This document shows, piece after piece, positions 1-5,638 of a stretch of DNA of 5,638 nt (the first letter of the stretch is position 1; the number at the start of each line of letters is the position of its first letter). The notes beneath the pieces are model-generated. The model was not told where the DNA came from. It saw nothing but the letters and a program-made list of their open reading frames with translations, and did no database searches. This DNA comes from a virus (taxonomy: Duplodnaviria; Heunggongvirae; Uroviricota; Caudoviricetes): IMG/VR virus record IMGVR_UViG_3300029181_000111. One strand, 5' to 3'. The position numbers were made by a program, and so were the translations under genes.

Positions 1-51
1 CTGACACCGTTGAATTATCTCGCCAAACAGCGACAAAAAGTGATGTGGTGA
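1..51 (+). CDS. Possible 3' end of an upstream AraC-family regulator gene (envY-like); 5' part lies outside the window
   Basis: Frame 1 reads LTPLNYLAKQRQKVMW then TGA at 49-51. The TP..Y spacing resembles the C-terminal G-x-TP-x-x-Y tail of AraC/XylS proteins (compare [10 protein letters not shown] at the AppY C-terminus in this window). Only 16 codons are visible, and frame 3 is also open here, so this is weak. Confidence 0.3.
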   Translation: MTPLNYLAKQRQKVMW

Positions 52-96
52 AGGGCAAAGCGGAAACGGATAAGACGGGCATAAATGAGGAAGAAA

Positions 97-141
97 TGGC
101 GCGCCCTGCAGGATTCGAACCTGCGGCCCACGACTTAGAAG
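97..141 (-). other. 3'-terminal 45 nt of tRNA-Arg(UCU) (argU) without the 5' half: prophage attachment-site core (attR-type remnant)
   Basis: Reverse complement of 97-141 is CTTCTAAGTCGTGGGCCGCAGGTTCGAATCCTGCAGGGCGCGCCA: anticodon loop with UCU, T-arm GGTTCGAATCC, acceptor 3' strand and CCA. Sequence beyond 141 (tRNA 5' side) does not continue as a D-arm or acceptor 5' strand, so this is a fragment, not a gene. Lambdoid prophage DLP12 is known to integrate into argU. Confidence 0.85.
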
Positions 142-464
142 TTCCTAGAACGACATTTTAAGTCAACAACTTACCGCGCCATCTCTGCGCTCACACGTCC
201 CACTACCTCAAAACATGTAAAGCCTTGCAAGCCATTGCGAGGCCTTATGTGTCTCAGTTTTGTCCCTCTTTTTTGTACTAAAAAACATAGTAATTGAGGA
301 TAAACCTCATGCTATTTTCGCTTATATGCCTCTAAAGGCATGGCACTTAAATAGATAAAAGCACCACAAAAGCATAAAAAAACCACACAGTAAAACCGAA
401 ATATGAAACAATAACAGATAATTAAACCAAAAACAGATAGCGCATTGTGATAATCATTCAATAC

Positions 465-481
465 TAAACAAAATATAAACA
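465..481 (-). promoter_or_regulatory. Candidate PhoP box (direct repeat TGTTTA-N5-TGTTTA read on the minus strand) upstream of ompT
   Basis: Plus strand 465-481 is TAAACAAAATATAAACA; reverse complement is TGTTTA-TATTT-TGTTTA, a perfect match to the (T/G)GTTTA-N5-(T/G)GTTTA PhoP consensus. It sits about 85-100 bp upstream of the ompT ATG. ompT is reported to be PhoPQ-regulated; function of this particular site is inferred. Confidence 0.45.
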
Positions 482-553
482 GTGGAGCAATATGTAATTG
501 ACTCATTAAGTTAGATATAAAAAATACATATTCAATCATTAAAACGATTGAAT

Positions 554-557
554 GGAG
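554..557 (+). promoter_or_regulatory. Shine-Dalgarno sequence (GGAG) for ompT
   Basis: GGAG lies 7 nt upstream of the ATG at 565. Confidence 0.7.
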
Positions 558-564
558 AACTTTT

Positions 565-624
565 ATGCGGGCGAAACTTCTGGGAATAGTCCTGACAACC
601 CCTATTGCGATCAGCTCTTTTGCT
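565..624 (+). other. ompT: OmpT signal peptide (predicted cleavage after Ala20, SFA/STE)
   Basis: N-terminal basic residues (R2, K4), a hydrophobic core, and A-x-A-like SFA before the mature N-terminus STETLSF. Confidence 0.8.
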
Positions 625-1518
625 TCTACCGAGACTTTATCGTTTACTCCTGACAACATAAATGCGGACATTAGTCTTGGAACTCTGAGCGGAAAAACAA
701 AAGAGCGTGTTTATCTAGCCGAAGAAGGAGGCCGAAAAGTCAGTCAACTCGACTGGAAATTCAATAACGCTGCAATTATTAAAGGTGCAATTAATTGGGA
801 TTTGATGCCCCAGATATCTATCGGGGCTGCTGGCTGGACAACTCTCGGCAGCCGAGGTGGCAATATGGTCGATCAGGACTGGATGGATTCCAGTAACCCC
901 GGAACCTGGACGGATGAAAGTAGACACCCTGATACACAACTCAATTATGCCAACGAATTTGATCTGAATATCAAAGGCTGGCTCCTCAACGAACCCAATT
1001 ACCGCCTGGGACTCATGGCCGGATATCAGGAAAGCCGTTATAGCTTTACAGCCAGAGGTGGTTCCTATATCTACAGTTCTGAGGAGGGATTCAGAGATGA
1101 TATCGGCTCCTTCCCGAATGGAGAAAGAGCAATCGGCTACAAACAACGTTTTAAAATGCCCTACATTGGCTTGACTGGAAGTTATCGTTATGAAGATTTT
1201 GAACTCGGTGGCACATTTAAATACAGCGGCTGGGTGGAATCATCTGATAACGATGAACACTATGACCCGGGAAAAAGAATCACTTATCGCAGTAAGGTCA
1301 AAGACCAAAATTACTATTCTGTTGCAGTCAATGCAGGTTATTACGTCACACCTAACGCAAAAGTTTATGTTGAAGGCGCATGGAATCGGGTTACGAATAA
1401 AAAAGGTAATACTTCACTTTATGATCACAATAATAACACTTCAGACTACAGCAAAAATGGAGCAGGTATAGAAAACTATAACTTCATCACTACTGCTGGT
1501 CTTAAGTACACATTTTAA
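565..1518 (+). CDS. ompT: Outer membrane protease OmpT (omptin family, protease VII), 317-aa precursor
   Basis: ORF of 317 aa with good RBS. The translation matches E. coli OmpT as I recall it, including signal peptide MRAKLLGIVLTTPIAISSFA, the catalytic Asp pair in VDQDWMD (precursor D103/D105) and the Asp/His pair in SDNDEHYD (precursor D230/H232), and a C-terminal aromatic residue (…GLKYTF) typical of beta-barrel outer membrane proteins. Confidence 0.97.
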   Translation: MRAKLLGIVLTTPIAISSFASTETLSFTPDNINADISLGTLSGKTKERVYLAEEGGRKVSQLDWKFNNAAIIKGAINWDLMPQISIGAAGWTTLGSRGGNMVDQDWMDSSNPGTWTDESRHPDTQLNYANEFDLNIKGWLLNEPNYRLGLMAGYQESRYSFTARGGSYIYSSEEGFRDDIGSFPNGERAIGYKQRFKMPYIGLTGSYRYEDFELGGTFKYSGWVESSDNDEHYDPGKRITYRSKVKDQNYYSVAVNAGYYVTPNAKVYVEGAWNRVTNKKGNTSLYDHNNNTSDYSKNGAGIENYNFITTAGLKYTF

Positions 1519-1534
1519 GAACGCCAACTAAAAT

Positions 1535-1563
1535 TTCCCCGAGGTGAAAATCGCCCCGGGGAA
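1535..1563. terminator. GC-rich hairpin in the convergent ompT/appY intergenic region; possible transcription terminator
   Basis: TTCCCCG (1535-1541) pairs with CGGGGAA (1557-1563), 7 bp with a 15-nt loop, 17 bp after the ompT stop. There is no U-tract on the plus strand; on the minus strand it is followed by AUUUUAG. Weak as a classical intrinsic terminator. Confidence 0.3.
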
Positions 1564-1767
1564 TAACTAGCCATTTCAATGTAACAATTAACCCTTAAAA
1601 TAAACCCAGAAGGTTATTAACTAAATCACATAGAAAACCATCAATTATAGTATGTATAAAATAGGCGACAGCAACCCAATTACAAATTAATGGTTCCAGA
1701 ATATCACATCAAAAAAAACGCTGTATAATATTATAATTAACATGTAGACAACTTGTAATAAACATTA

Positions 1768-2517
1768 TCAGTCAATTGTTTTGTTTATTCCATCTGTGAC
1801 GCCGATTATTTTCTCAAAATAATGAGATGGCGTGACACCATAATAATCTTTAAATGCACATATGAAATATGAAGTACTGTTATAGCCACATTTCTGGGCT
1901 ACGACATTGATAGAATAAGAGTTTGAAGTTATGAGTTTTTTTGCATACCTCATCCTAGTATCTCTCAATATTTCAGTAAATGACGTTCCTTCATCCCTTA
2001 ATCTTTTTTTTATTAAACTTTCACTCGTATAAATCAATTCCGCAATATCTTTTAAATGCCATTGCCGCTCAATATTAAAACTGATTATTCCAGTAATTTT
2101 ACAGGTAAATGTATTTATATTTGTTAGTATAAATGAATTTACACTTTCGCGTTTTTTGAACATGGCAAGTAAGGATATACATAGTCTTTCTTTTAACCAA
2201 AGGGAGTGTGAGTCTGCTATTTTAATCCCTTCAAACAGAGAAAAAACAAGCGATAATGGAGGTTCCTCTTCAGCAATATAGCCATTCTTATCAAGAGTAA
2301 ATTTGCCAGGCAGCTCATTATTCACGTCGATAAAAAAGGATAAACATGTTTTCTTATCTATATCAACAATTCTTAGTTTAGAGGGGCATACTGGTAACTC
2401 CCTTCTAATTTTGTCGCTTACAATAAACAATGAATTTTTTTTGAACGAGATAACTCTCCTGTTTATAATTAAATCAAATGATTGACAGATGAAAACTACG
2501 GAGCAAACATAATCCAT
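1768..2517 (-). CDS. appY: AraC-family transcriptional activator AppY (C-terminal HTH domain), 249 aa
   Basis: 249-aa ORF with ATG start and an AGGTG SD-like sequence upstream. The C-terminal region has AraC-type HTH signatures (…[25 protein letters not shown]…). It is convergent with ompT as in K-12 DLP12, and the sequence matches my recollection of AppY. The gene is very AT-rich. Confidence 0.9.
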
Positions 2518-3062
2518 CTTGCACCTATCATAAAATTAAAACAAGTTGATAGTAGTCAAATAACAACCAATTAAATACACAATCATAATCAGGATGATGT
2601 GCATTTATATTTTTATACACAAAATTATAGTTTGCAAATTTTAATAAATTTCATTTAAGATTAAATTATTATATGTATGTTGTTTTTTATTCTAACTTAT
2701 TTCAAAGTTACATTTTTCAACGCTTACTATGCTTTTTATTAACATAAACTCACTACAACGCACCTGAAACCTCTTGCTATATATATGTCAACCGTTTGAA
2801 TTTAAAATAAAAAGAGTATCATTTTTACTTGCATTTCTTATCAAGTCACATTCAACAACAGTAAAAAAACATTATTAGAACCATTCAATTAACAAAAAAC
2901 CAACATCCAGCTTGCTTAATTTTTCTTTATTAAACGATATTGAAAATCAATTGATAAAATACATCTAAACAACCTTTTGGGGCGCAAAAGCATAACATCA
3001 AACAAACAAATAACACACCGAAAAAACTCACAATTAATAACCTATGATATACATACTGTTTA

Positions 3063-3323
3063 TTATGGTTGAATAAGCCACTCGATATCTGGTGCTACGG
3101 AAGTGTCCACACGGTTTAGCAGCACCCGATACTTTTTTCAGGCTTCCAGCAACGATCTTTCTTCCTCCGTTGCGATTTCCAGATCTACAGCATCCTGCAG
3201 TGGCGCAATATACTCACTGAATTCCTGGATGTAGAACTGTGTGGTGACGGTCTTCCAGCCATTCGGCTCCTGCTGTATTGAAGCATACCAGGCTATTTCA
3301 ATATCGCTATGCTGCGGCAGCAT
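3063..3323 (-). pseudogene. tfaX: Tail fibre assembly protein remnant (tfaX-like); C-terminal Tfa homology interrupted by an in-frame TGA
   Basis: The 61-aa ORF 3138-3323 ends …[25 protein letters not shown], matching the intact Tfa in this window (…[29 protein letters not shown]…). At the position of Tfa Trp (TGG) this copy has TGA. Reading on in the same frame gives [20 protein letters not shown]… to a TAA at 3063-3065. The N-terminal part is diverged. Confidence 0.7.
3077..3219. repeat. Copy 1 of a 143-bp imperfect direct repeat (3' end of tfa-family genes)
   Basis: By hand alignment, 3077-3219 against 4124-4266 shows about 17 mismatches over 143 bp (about 88% identity) with no indels. 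Confidence 0.85.
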
Positions 3324-3461
3324 TTAACCCCTTGTAATTCATTGCCATAATTGATTTAATTCACAAATAAAACTATAACATGGTGAAATTAATAAAAAAA
3401 CACAGATGATGGGGCTAGAATTTACACACCACTTACCCTAAAGCTTTATGACTGGTGGGTT

Positions 3462-4046
3462 TTGGGAGTATCAAATCGGCTTGCATGGGGATGTCCTACA
3501 AAGGAACACCTTCTTCCACACTTTCTGGAACATTTAGGTAACAACCATCTGGATATTGGTGTTGGAACTGGGTTTTACCTTACTCACGTACCTGAGAGTA
3601 GTCTGATATCTTTAATGGATTTGAACGAAGCTAGCCTGAACGCGGCATCTACAAGGGCTGGGGAATCAAAAATTAAACATAAAATTAGCCATGATGTTTT
3701 TGAACCTTATCCCGCGGCGTTACATGGTCAATTTGATTCCATTTCCATGTCTTACCTTCTTCACTGCCTGCCTGGAAATATATCTACAAAAAGCTGTGTA
3801 ATACGCAATGCGGCGCAGGCCTTAACTGACGATGGAACTCTATACGGAGCCACAATTCTTGGCGATGGAGTTGTGCACAATAGCTTCGGTCAAAAACTGA
3901 TGCGCATTTACAATCAGAAAGGCATCTTTTCAAACACAAAAGATTCCGAAGAAGGCTTAACACATATACTCTCAGAGCATTTCGAGAATGTTAAAACCAA
4001 GGTTCAAGGTACTGTAGTAATGTTTTCCGCTTCAGGAAAAAAATAG
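3462..4046 (+). CDS. ybcY: Class I SAM-dependent methyltransferase (ybcY-like); start codon uncertain, possibly 5'-truncated or a pseudogene
   Basis: Motif I LDIGVGTG, an acidic residue after beta-2 (LISLMDLNE) and an FDSISMSYLLHCL motif-II-like segment. The ORF track starts at TTG 3462 with a poorly spaced SD. The same frame is open back to 3396 (…PLTLKLYDWWVLGVS…) with no in-frame ATG or GTG. ATG-ATG at 3406-3411 is one nucleotide out of frame. The position between tfa and tfaX matches ybcY of K-12 DLP12. Confidence 0.6.
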   Translation: MGVSNRLAWGCPTKEHLLPHFLEHLGNNHLDIGVGTGFYLTHVPESSLISLMDLNEASLNAASTRAGESKIKHKISHDVFEPYPAALHGQFDSISMSYLLHCLPGNISTKSCVIRNAAQALTDDGTLYGATILGDGVVHNSFGQKLMRIYNQKGIFSNTKDSEEGLTHILSEHFENVKTKVQGTVVMFSASGKK

Positions 4047-4086
4047 CATCCAACCGCAGCATGTTCTTGCTTAAGACGTGCTGCGG
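4038..4086 (-). terminator. Candidate intrinsic terminator downstream of tfa (minus-strand sense)
   Basis: Stem CCGCAGCATG (4054-4063) pairs with CGTGCTGCGG (4077-4086), 10 bp with one G-U pair and a 13-nt loop. On the minus strand it is followed by UUGGAUGCUAUUUUUUU. It lies between the convergent stops of tfa (4101) and ybcY (4046). Confidence 0.35.
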
Positions 4087-4100
4087 CATAATCCCAATGA

Positions 4101-4685
4101 TTACTCCCTGACAGGGTTCGTAGGCCACTCAATATCAGGTGCAGTTGATGTATCAACACGGTTCAGCAACACCCGATATTTTTTCCAGGCTTCCAGCAAT
4201 GAGGTTTCTTCCTCCGTTGCGATTTCCAGATCTACAGCATCCTGAAGTGGCGCAATATGCTCACTGGCTACCTGCATCAGGCTGTTTTTTGTTTCTTCCG
4301 CCTCCCGAATCCGGAACAGTTTTTCTGCTTCTGCATCTTTCACCCAGGCTGTACCGTTCCACTTCTGAAACTCCCCTTCCGGCGATAACCAGGTAACATT
4401 TTCCGGTAACGGACCGAGTTCAGAAATAAATAACGCGTCCCCTGACGCTACGTCATAAACCGTTTTACCCCGATGATCTTCAACGAGATGCCACGATGAC
4501 TCATCACTGTTGAAAACAGCCACGAAGCCAGCTGGAATATCTGGCGGTGCAATGTCGGTACTGTTTGCTGGCAGACCTGTATGAGGCGGAATATATGCAT
4601 CACCTTCACCAATAAATTCATTAGTTCCGGCCAGCAGATTATAAATTTTTATGGTCCGTGGTTGTTCACTCATTCTGAATGCCAT
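4101..4685 (-). CDS. tfaD: Tail fibre assembly protein Tfa (lambda Tfa-like), 194 aa, apparently intact
   Basis: The 194-aa ORF ([24 protein letters not shown]…[11 protein letters not shown]) closely matches lambda Tfa as recalled. Its ATG overlaps the upstream stf stop in the TAATG arrangement typical of stf-tfa. The symbol is assigned by position in DLP12 and is uncertain. Confidence 0.9.
4124..4266. repeat. Copy 2 of the 143-bp imperfect direct repeat (3' end of the intact tfa)
   Basis: See copy 1. This copy lies within the tfa coding sequence. Confidence 0.85.
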
Positions 4686-5548
4686 TATGCAAGCCTCACA
4701 ATATAGTTAAATGCGATGTTTTTGACGGTGTTTTCCGCGTTACCAGCAGCGTTAACGGTGATGGTGTGTCCATGTGAGCCAATCGCAACGGAGTGCGTAT
4801 GAGCACCAATACCGACAGTATGTGCATGTGCGCCTGCGCTTGCAGCAGTGCCGGACAGCGAGTGGGTATGAGCACCATCTGATGATGTCTTCCCTGCATT
4901 ACGAGTCTGGCCACTACCGCTTGTTGTGCTCATAATCCCCGCGCTCAGATTTGAAATCGCGGTATAACCATTAGGAAAAATGCTCGTATTCGTGCCACCA
5001 AATGCACCGGAACTCTTGTGTTGGTGCGCACCGGCACTATTTGCAGTCCCGCTAATACTATGGGTATGCGCCCCGGTGTTATTCGTGGATTTGGTTCCGT
5101 AATCAAACGACGATGTGTTTTTCGTCCCCAAATCCGTACTGGATGCGCTGGCGCTGTGGGTGTGCGATTTAATGCCGTCCTGTTCCTGAGACAATACGGC
5201 ACGACCACTGGCGGGTTTGCCCTTAATCGTCCAGCCACGCATAAGGGTGTTGCGCTGCTTATGCTCTATAAAGTAGGCATAAACACCCAGCAGCATTTTG
5301 GAATAACCGACACGGGCAGACTTCACCACATTCACCTCACGGATGTAGTCGCTGCCCATCGCATTCATGATGGCCCGCTGAAAGGGCAGTGTTTCCCAGC
5401 GCCCTTCCTGGTATGCGGATTCTTTCGGGAGATAGTAATTAGCATCCGCCCATTCAACGGCGGTCTGTGGCTCCGGCCTGAACAGTGAGCGAAGCCCGGC
5501 GCGGACAAAATGCCGCAGCCTGTTAACCTGACTGTTCGATATATTCAC
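4685..5548 (-). CDS. In-frame chimeric ORF: N-terminal ~103 aa of terminase large subunit (lambda gpA-like) fused to the C-terminal ~184 aa of a side tail fibre (Stf) receptor-binding region; deletion scar of a defective prophage
   Basis: The N-terminus [102 protein letters not shown] matches lambda gpA as recalled, with a GTG start overlapping the Nu1 stop. After …RNTL the sequence switches to Stf-like His/Gly/Ser-rich repeats ending …[31 protein letters not shown]. The junction is near nt 5240. It may correspond to the aaaD/stf remnant of K-12 DLP12, which I am not sure of. Confidence 0.85.
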
Positions 5549-5638
5549 TCAGCAACCCCGGTATCAGTTCATCCAGCGCGGCTGCTTTGTTCATGGCTTT
5601 GATGATATCCCGTTTCAGGAAATCAACATGTCGGTTTT
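5523..5638 (-). CDS. nohD: 3' end of terminase small subunit gene (lambda Nu1 homologue); 5' part lies outside the window
   Basis: The minus-strand frame reads …[37 protein letters not shown] with TAA at 5523-5525, matching the lambda Nu1 C-terminus as recalled. The stop overlaps the start of the downstream A-like ORF, as in lambda. Confidence 0.8.

What the first reader, a model, noticed from the sequence alone, without database searches (positions are those of the whole stretch)
97..141. Truncated argU tRNA (3' 45 nt) marks a prophage attachment site at the edge of the ompT/appY island
Only the anticodon-loop-to-CCA part of tRNA-Arg(UCU) is present, on the minus strand, with no matching 5' half. 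That is the signature of the duplicated att core left by a phage that integrated into the 3' end of a tRNA gene. It puts the prophage boundary at 141/142 and places ompT and appY inside the element as cargo. The discriminator base here is G (…AGGGCGCGCCA).
Basis: partly seen in the sequence, partly recalled or inferred. Interest (0 to 1): 0.45.

Follow-up and report, generated by a model that had tools for sequence, protein, structure and literature searches.

The report
DLP12 prophage attR: displaced argU fragment

Summary
Confirmed and already known. Window 97-141 (minus strand) is an exact copy of the last 45 nt of E. coli argU, tRNA-Arg(UCU), running from the first base of the anticodon loop to CCA. 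It has no 5' half and no tRNA call. The exact repeat with the argU locus is 47 bp (window 95-141).

The window is the reverse complement of the right end of prophage DLP12: envY 3' end, fragment, ompT, appY, tail-fibre remnants. The K-12 RefSeq feature "cryptic prophage DLP12" starts at the first base of this 45-nt block inside argU.

Intact argU lies next to the tyrosine integrase intD 21.3 kb away in K-12, and 39 kb away in the closest relative, NCTC9038. An empty site (fimZ-argU-envY, contiguous) is present in about 2514 of 5426 complete E. coli genomes. The envY-fragment-ompT junction is present in most of about 2714.

Sequenced phage genomes (Kati, 2G7b and others) carry integrase, the same 47-bp core, a conserved P arm and ompT; Kati also carries appY. 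This is the attP form, and it shows ompT and appY are phage cargo.

Published work already describes the 47-bp argU-like attR of DLP12. Interest is low.

The parts
1..51 (+). 3' end of envY (last 16 codons plus stop); host gene flanking the prophage
   Evidence: Frame-1 translation reads LTPLNYLAKQRQKVMW*. The envY CDS ends at locus 20051, which is window 51, in NCTC9038. K-12 envY is at 586147-586908.
52..94 (.). Host flank B': the original sequence downstream of argU before phage integration
   Evidence: In empty-site genomes this sequence directly follows the CCA-TT of intact argU. Matches of empty-site genomes to the window stop at 141-144 (H48-H51).
95..141 (-). 47-bp att core (identity block). 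Positions 97-141 are argU nt 33-77, from the anticodon loop to CCA; 95-96 are the TT shared after CCA. This is a displaced 3' tRNA-gene fragment, not a tRNA gene.
   Evidence: Exact match to K-12 argU. There are two copies only in K-12 (L002 1256-1300 and 22558-22602) and two in NCTC9038. No tRNA is called.
135..141 (-). The 7-nt anticodon loop CUUCUAA: the probable strand-exchange (overlap) region. Inferred, not shown.
   Evidence: The identity with argU starts exactly at the first loop base. Anticodon-centred crossover is one of the recognised classes of tRNA-gene attachment sites (PMC4383910).
142..266 (+). Phage P arm of the attachment site, which makes this attR = P-O-B'. It holds a near-consensus IHF-like site at 161-173, a GTCCCAC motif at 197-203 and a hairpin at 222-243.
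   Evidence: Identical or near-identical in phages Kati, 2G7b and PhiR29_1. About 76-87% conserved in Salmonella phages epsilon34 and BIS08P22, Enterobacter phage vB_Ecl_MII_001 and two further E. coli phage records, up to about window 264-269. Beyond that the cargo differs. Motifs and hairpin.
267..564 (+). AT-rich start of the cargo segment and ompT upstream region
   Evidence: GC is 0.31-0.38. The sequence diverges from PhiR29_1 and epsilon34 after about 266 but continues into ompT in Kati and 2G7b.
565..1518 (+). ompT, omptin outer-membrane protease (prophage cargo)
   Evidence: Pfam Omptin 433 bits. Annotated ompT at the same coordinates in NCTC9038. Present next to attP in phages 2G7b and Kati.
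1768..2517 (-). appY, AraC-family regulator (prophage cargo)
   Evidence: Pfam HTH_18 and HTH_AraC. Annotated appY. Phage Kati has a 750-nt 'transcriptional regulator' CDS in the same position. PMC10057817 states that appY lies in DLP12, which is integrated in argU.
3063..4685 (.). Prophage remnants: partial tail-fibre assembly gene (3063-3230, -), frameshifted SAM methyltransferase ybcY (3380-4046, +), tail-fibre assembly gene tfaD (4101-4685, -)
   Evidence: Annotation of NCTC9038 and K-12 at the equivalent positions.
4685..5548 (-). Fusion ORF of 287 aa: terminase large-subunit N-terminus (5548-5244) joined to a tail-fibre C-terminus (5243-4685). This is an internal deletion scar of the prophage.
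   Evidence: The identical protein is encoded on two human-gut metagenome contigs, with GpA_ATPase and Phage_fiber Pfam hits.

Best explanation
Window 95-141 is the core of attR, the right-hand attachment site of the lambdoid cryptic prophage DLP12 (or a very close variant of it).

A phage whose attP carries the last 45 nt of argU plus TT recombined with the host argU gene through its tyrosine integrase. The exchange most probably took place in the anticodon loop. Integration regenerated a complete argU next to int (attL). It displaced the original 3' part of argU to the far end of the prophage, where it now sits between the phage P arm (window 142-266) and the old host flank leading to envY (window 1-94).

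The fragment is not a tRNA gene. It is a recombination site and a scar. ompT and appY sit in the variable cargo slot just inside the P arm.

Shown: the repeat, the intact argU with integrase at the other end, the empty site, the attP form in phage genomes, and the cargo position. Inferred: the exact crossover point, the arm-type, IHF and terminator-like elements in the P arm, and whether the site can still recombine in this strain.
For: - Exact 45/47-bp match to argU; no chance match in 200 shuffles.
- The K-12 RefSeq DLP12 feature 564755..586056 has the same boundaries, with argU and intD at the other end. The window is 100% identical to K-12 over the aligned stretches of 4000-5638, apart from one 704-bp segment, and a K-12 laboratory strain matches window 1-700 at 100%.
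- NCTC9038 is 100% identical over window 1-5243. It has a 39-kb lambdoid prophage ending at tRNA-Arg plus a truncated integrase.
- The empty attB is contiguous in about 2514 of 5426 genomes. The envY-fragment-ompT junction, or in some strains the fragment-ompT part alone, covers at least 80% of window 1-700 in about 2714.
- Only two core copies exist per prophage.
- Phages Kati, Turner, 2G7b, ev243 and PhiR49_1 match from window 91-95 onwards; the two examined, Kati and 2G7b, show integrase, 47-bp core, P arm and ompT in that order.
- The P arm is conserved in epsilon34, whose record annotates the attP site as similar to the 3' end of argU.
- IntD and Kati Int are Phage_integrase family members.
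- Literature: a 47-bp argU-like attR at the other end of DLP12 (PMC6379469); appY in DLP12, which is integrated in argU (PMC10057817); epsilon34 attP and its DLP12-like integrase (PMC2629481); the general principle of a regenerated tRNA gene plus a displaced fragment (PMC4383910).
Against: - The window does not include the argU/int end, so for this particular strain the second copy is inferred from K-12 and NCTC9038.
- No complete genome in the collection holds the whole window; the 5243/5244 junction is found only on two short metagenome contigs.
- The crossover point inside the 47 bp cannot be read from the sequence, because the two copies are identical.
- Nothing tested contradicts the attR reading.
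Confidence: 0.97

Rival explanations
1. A complete or functional tRNA or tRNA-like gene sits at this locus. The phage Kati record annotates an 84-nt 'tRNA-Pro' at the position equivalent to window 97-180.
For: The Kati annotation lists tRNA-Pro at 5936-6019(-). The Rfam tRNA model gives a sub-threshold hit at 108-191(-) of 24.8 bits. A 6-bp helix can form between GGCGCG (175-180) and CGCGCC, which uses up the CCA.
Against: - ARAGORN calls nothing in the window, in Kati or in 2G7b, yet it does call argU in K-12 and in the ST131 strain.
- The Rfam score is below the 29-bit gathering score, and the alignment has no acceptor stem and a 29-nt insertion.
- The fold energy is no better than shuffles, z = -1.15.
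- Only the genuine argU T arm drives the hit.
Confidence: 0.01
2. The fragment is the decayed remnant of a second chromosomal argU gene copy, truncated by deletion and unrelated to phage integration.
For: Truncated tRNA pseudogenes can arise by deletion. The ST131 copy differs at 5 positions from that strain's argU, which shows the fragment can decay.
Against: - The truncation point is exactly the first base of the anticodon loop, and the same 47 bp is found in phage attP next to int.
- Empty-site genomes have a single argU joined to precisely the flank that follows the fragment here.
- The sequence on the other side of the fragment is the phage P arm, shared with sequenced phage genomes.
Confidence: 0.01
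3. The fragment is the end of a separate ompT/appY genomic island that integrated in tandem beside DLP12, rather than the prophage's own attR.
For: The ompT-appY segment is much more AT-rich (GC 0.24-0.33) than the neighbouring tail-fibre genes (about 0.5). Tandem arrays at tRNA genes are known (PMC4383910).
Against: - A tandem array needs a third core copy between the elements. K-12 and NCTC9038 each have only two.
- Sequenced phage genomes carry ompT (Kati also appY) between the tail-fibre genes and attP, as part of one genome.
- The slot after the P arm holds other cargo in related phages: gtrABC, umuD, an acetyltransferase.
Confidence: 0.02

Closest known systems
attR of cryptic prophage DLP12 in E. 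coli K-12 MG1655 (RefSeq feature 564755..586056). From my own memory, not checked here, older K-12 annotation names the fragment pauD, 'argU pseudogene, DLP12 prophage attachment site'.
   Same: The 45/47-bp fragment, the flanks (envY side and P arm), ompT and appY are the same. The sequence is 100% identical where compared. The 47-bp attR is described in PMC6379469.
   Different: This window keeps 704 bp (about 4538-5241: tfaD N-terminal part plus tail-fibre C-terminus) that MG1655 lacks. Both share the same terminase breakpoint.
attP of ompT-carrying lambdoid phages Kati (PP925833), Turner, 2G7b (NC_049954), ev243 and the PhiR49_1 group
   Same: They share the same 47-bp core, the same P arm and ompT (Kati also appY), at 98-99% identity from window 95 onwards.
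   Different: In the phages the core is followed by P' and int (attP = P-O-P'). Here it is followed by the host flank and envY (attR = P-O-B').
attP of Salmonella phage epsilon34 (P22-like; putative argU integration)
   Same: The integrase is DLP12-like, and the core is similar to the 3' end of argU. The core plus P arm is conserved at about 81% over window 95-264 (PMC2629481).
   Different: The virion type and cargo differ (gtrABC instead of ompT/appY). A few substitutions in the core match Salmonella argU.
Phage lambda attR (P-O-B') and the general class of tRNA-gene-integrating tyrosine-recombinase elements
   Same: The logic is the same: a core shared by attL and attR, a P arm of about 125-150 bp on the tail/b-region side, and int on the other side. 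The regenerated tRNA gene and its displaced fragment mark the ends (PMC4383910).
   Different: Lambda's core is 15 bp in an intergenic site. Here the core is 47 bp and overlaps a tRNA gene from the anticodon loop to the 3' end.

Membership tests
Functional tRNA gene (argU, tRNA-Arg UCU) | Complete cloverleaf: acceptor stem 5' strand, D arm, anticodon stem 5' strand | tested here: not met
   Only nt 33-77 are present. ARAGORN finds none. Rfam scores 24.8, below 29 bits, with no acceptor stem. The alignment to argU shows no similarity upstream of the core.
Displaced tRNA-gene fragment marking attR of a tyrosine-integrase element | Exact direct repeat of the 3' part of a tRNA gene, with the intact gene at the other end of the element | tested here: met
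   The 47-bp repeat occurs at K-12 L002 1256-1300 and 22558-22602, and in NCTC9038 at L001 20097-20141 and L003 14924-14968. For the window's own strain this is inferred from these relatives.
Displaced tRNA-gene fragment marking attR of a tyrosine-integrase element | Tyrosine integrase gene adjacent to the regenerated tRNA gene | tested here: met
   intD lies 15 nt from argU in K-12 and scores PF00589 160 bits. A truncated integrase sits next to tRNA-Arg in NCTC9038 and in ST131 strain uk_P46212.
Displaced tRNA-gene fragment marking attR of a tyrosine-integrase element | Related genomes without the element show the precise empty site (attB) | tested here: met
   A synthetic fimZ-argU-envY junction matches about 2514 of 5426 genomes over at least 80% of its length. 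Many are single pieces at 100% identity.
Displaced tRNA-gene fragment marking attR of a tyrosine-integrase element | The free element carries attP, with the same core between the two arms | tested here: met
   Kati and 2G7b carry int, core, P arm and ompT in that order.
Displaced tRNA-gene fragment marking attR of a tyrosine-integrase element | Int/Xis-dependent recombination at the site (excision giving attB plus attP) | not testable with these tools
   This needs PCR or sequencing of the junctions, or an in vitro assay. In K-12, xisD is a pseudogene.
Prophage DLP12 | Location between argU and envY, with the right-end gene order tfaD-ybcY-tfaX-appY-ompT | tested here: met
   The gene order and coordinates match the K-12 and NCTC9038 annotation. 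Identity is 100% where compared.

The most novel reading that the evidence does not exclude
The site may be more than a dead scar. The intact 47-bp core plus the fully conserved P arm (identical to that of sequenced phages such as Kati) could still act as a live attR. It could also act as a secondary landing site for other argU-targeting phages. The conserved P-arm hairpin (222-243) could be a lambda sib/tI-like element, separated from int by integration, that now lies downstream of envY. None of this is excluded, and none is shown.
Probability: 0.15. Interest if true: 0.2.

Novelty: already known. Interest (0 to 1): 0.07.

Why it matters
The finding correctly delimits a prophage and shows that two physiologically important E. 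coli genes are phage-borne cargo: the outer-membrane protease ompT and the regulator appY. This is textbook knowledge for K-12 and is already in the reference annotation and in the literature. Its value here is as a clean positive control for boundary calling, not as a discovery.

Tried and rejected
- **Chance match:** rejected.
- **Complete tRNA:** rejected. The 'tRNA-Pro' in the Kati record is most likely a predictor false positive driven by the real argU T arm.
- **Tandem-island reading:** rejected, because there is no third core copy.
- **IHF consensus scan:** one near-consensus site lies in the P arm (161-173). The window as a whole has 20 matches against 11.9 expected, so this is weak evidence.
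- **GTCCCAY motif:** the total count in 12.4 kb of Kati is not above chance (3 against 1.98 expected). All three copies do lie within 300 bp around the core, on one strand, and sit in blocks conserved across phages. I treat them only as candidate arm-type sites.
- **10-mer ACGACATTTT in both arms:** not significant on its own.
- **Literature dead ends:** Lindsey et al. 1989 (PMC210489) is not held. A search for 'pauD' returned only unrelated papers.
- **Technical failures:** two Python calls failed because loci fetched by accession were not exported to /data. I worked from pasted sequence instead.
- **Side question on the window's source strain:** no complete genome holds the 5243/5244 junction. 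Strain PSJ-16 turned out to have yet another, independent deletion.

Full report
**Observation.** On the minus strand, window 97-141 reads CTTCTAAGTCGTGGGCCGCAGGTTCGAATCCTGCAGGGCGCGCCA. K-12 argU is 77 nt, and ARAGORN places its tct anticodon at position 35. The window block equals argU nt 33-77, so it starts at the first base of the seven-base anticodon loop and runs through the T arm, the 3' acceptor strand, the discriminator G and CCA. The match is exact and unique in the window, and no shuffle gave a match even at 3 mismatches.

There is no 5' half. ARAGORN calls no tRNA in the window. The Rfam tRNA model reaches 24.8 bits against a 29-bit gathering score; it covers model positions 9-63 only, by joining the real T arm to two fortuitous hairpins across a 29-nt insertion. 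The 84-nt stretch folds no better than shuffles, z = -1.15. The only correction is that the perfect repeat shared with the argU locus is 47 bp (window 95-141), because the TT after CCA is also shared.

**What the window is.** The ORFs and the annotation of matching genomes give this layout:
- envY 3' end at 1-51
- the argU fragment
- ompT at 565-1518 (+), Pfam Omptin 433 bits
- appY at 1768-2517 (-), AraC-type HTH
- a partial tail-fibre assembly gene, a frameshifted methyltransferase (ybcY) and tfaD
- a tail-fibre C-terminus fused to a terminase fragment

This is the reverse complement of the right end of the K-12 cryptic prophage DLP12. NCTC9038 is 100% identical over window 1-5243. K-12 is 100% identical over the aligned stretches of 4000-5638 except for a 704-bp segment discussed below, and a K-12 laboratory strain matches window 1-700 at 100%.

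**Tests of the att-site reading.**

1. *Second copy and integrase.* In K-12, argU (564723-564799) is followed after 15 nt by intD, which is Pfam Phage_integrase at 160 bits. The fragment lies 21.3 kb away at 586057-586101. In NCTC9038 the intact tRNA-Arg, next to a truncated integrase, lies 39 kb away across a near-complete lambdoid prophage.

2. *Annotated boundary.* The RefSeq feature 'cryptic prophage DLP12' spans 564755..586056. Base 564755 is the first base of the 45-nt block within argU, and 586056 maps to window 142.

3. *Empty site.* I joined K-12 fimZ-argU to the sequence that follows the fragment, which is window 96->1 continuing into envY. This synthetic attB is matched over at least 80% of its length in about 2514 of 5426 complete E. 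coli genomes, many as a single piece at 100% identity. Conversely, at least 80% of window 1-700 is covered in about 2714 genomes; most hold the envY-fragment-ompT junction, and some (such as ST131 strains) only the fragment-ompT part. In empty-site genomes the match to the window stops at 141-144 and lies under an annotated tRNA-Arg.

4. *Number of copies.* There are only two core copies per prophage in K-12 and in NCTC9038, so this is not a tandem array.

5. *attP in phage genomes.* Phages Kati, Turner, 2G7b, ev243 and the PhiR49_1 group match the window from position 91-95 onward at 98-99% identity. In 2G7b and Kati the order is integrase, 47-bp core, P arm, ompT. Kati also has the appY-sized regulator gene.

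A multiple alignment of attR (window), attL (K-12) and attP (five phages) shows the classical pattern. The core is common to all three forms. The int side is shared by attL and attP. The ompT side is shared by attR and attP.

**Anatomy of the site.** The P arm is conserved as far as about window 264-269, not only in E. coli phages. It is also about 76-87% conserved in Salmonella phages epsilon34 and BIS08P22, Enterobacter phage vB_Ecl_MII_001 and two further E. coli phage records. Beyond that point each phage carries different genes: gtrABC, umuD plus gtr, an acetyltransferase, or ompT with or without appY. So window 142-266 is the functional arm, and the next position is a cargo slot. The low GC of the cargo (0.24-0.38, against about 0.5 in the tail-fibre genes) fits that view.

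Candidate protein-binding elements in the arm are inference only:
- a near-consensus IHF site at 161-173
- a GTCCCAC motif at 197-203, whose only other copies in 12.4 kb of Kati lie in the P' arm and the int 3' end, on the same strand
- a hairpin at 222-243, in a region that the epsilon34 record marks as a possible int terminator

**Mechanism.** The identity block starts exactly at the anticodon loop, and anticodon-centred crossover is one of the recognised classes of tRNA-gene attachment sites (PMC4383910). The likely strand-exchange region is therefore window 135-141. If so, the 3' part of today's functional argU is phage-supplied, and the fragment in the window is the displaced original host 3' end, still attached to its old downstream flank.

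The fragment is not maintained as a tRNA. In ST131 strain uk_P46212 the prophage has shrunk to about 3.4 kb (fragment, ompT, methyltransferase, partial tfa, partial int, argU), and there the fragment differs from that strain's own argU at five positions.

**Comparison with what is known.** This is DLP12 attR.
- PMC10057817 states that appY lies in DLP12, which is integrated into argU, citing Lindsey et al. 1989.
- PMC2629481 describes the homologous epsilon34 attP and its DLP12-like integrase.
- From memory, not verified here, older K-12 annotation names the fragment pauD.

The finding is correct and already known. Interest is low.

**Side observations.** The window carries 704 bp (about 4538-5241) that MG1655 lacks, yet it shares MG1655's terminase breakpoint. 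The resulting 287-aa terminase/tail-fibre fusion ORF is absent as a contiguous junction from all 5426 complete genomes. It is encoded identically on two human-gut metagenome contigs, so it is a natural DLP12 variant. Strain PSJ-16 has a third, independent deletion in the same region. Two Rfam IS009 hits lie inside tail-fibre assembly genes.

Noticed in passing
window 4538-5241 and the junction at 5243/5244: The window is identical to K-12 MG1655 here except for an extra 704 bp (tfaD N-terminal part plus tail-fibre C-terminus), flanked by ATA microhomology. Both sequences share the same terminase breakpoint, which suggests that MG1655's DLP12 arose from a window-like intermediate by a second deletion. 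No complete E. coli genome of 5426 holds the window's junction. The 287-aa terminase/tail-fibre fusion ORF (4685-5548, -) is encoded identically on two short human-gut metagenome contigs.
   Followed up: partly
window 4144-4342 (-) and 3097-3300 (-): There are two matches to Rfam IS009 (RF02111): 227.8 bits, above the 117-bit gathering score, and 110 bits, just below it. Both lie inside tail-fibre assembly genes (tfaD and the tfaX remnant), so this 'sRNA' family may simply track conserved tfa coding sequence.
   Followed up: no
L006 (phage Kati, PP925833.1) 5936-6019, equivalent to window 97-180: The phage record annotates an 84-nt 'tRNA-Pro' over the argU-derived core plus part of the P arm. 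ARAGORN finds nothing there, and the Rfam tRNA score for the equivalent window sequence is below threshold. It looks like an annotation false positive caused by the att core.
   Followed up: yes
L004 (E. coli ST131 uk_P46212) 8001-11454: DLP12 is reduced to a remnant of about 3.4 kb: diverged argU fragment, ompT, methyltransferase, partial tfa, partial integrase, argU. envY is missing on one side and fimZ/sfm on the other. ompT has been kept while nearly all phage genes are lost.
   Followed up: partly
window 150-159, 161-173, 197-203, 222-243: The conserved P arm holds several features. ACGACATTTT is repeated in the int 3' end. There is a near-consensus IHF site. GTCCCAC recurs only around attP in phage Kati. 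A hairpin corresponds to a region the epsilon34 record marks as a possible int terminator. These are candidates for arm-type, IHF and sib/tI-like elements, and none is significant alone.
   Followed up: partly
L014 (E. coli PSJ-16) 186-1459: This is a third, independent internal deletion of DLP12. A 744-nt terminase fragment is joined directly to the tail-fibre assembly gene, which shows repeated loss of the structural-gene block in different lineages.
   Followed up: no
window 1500-3000: GC is very low (0.24-0.33) around appY and its upstream region, compared with about 0.5 in the tail-fibre genes. This fits foreign, H-NS-type silenced cargo.
   Followed up: no
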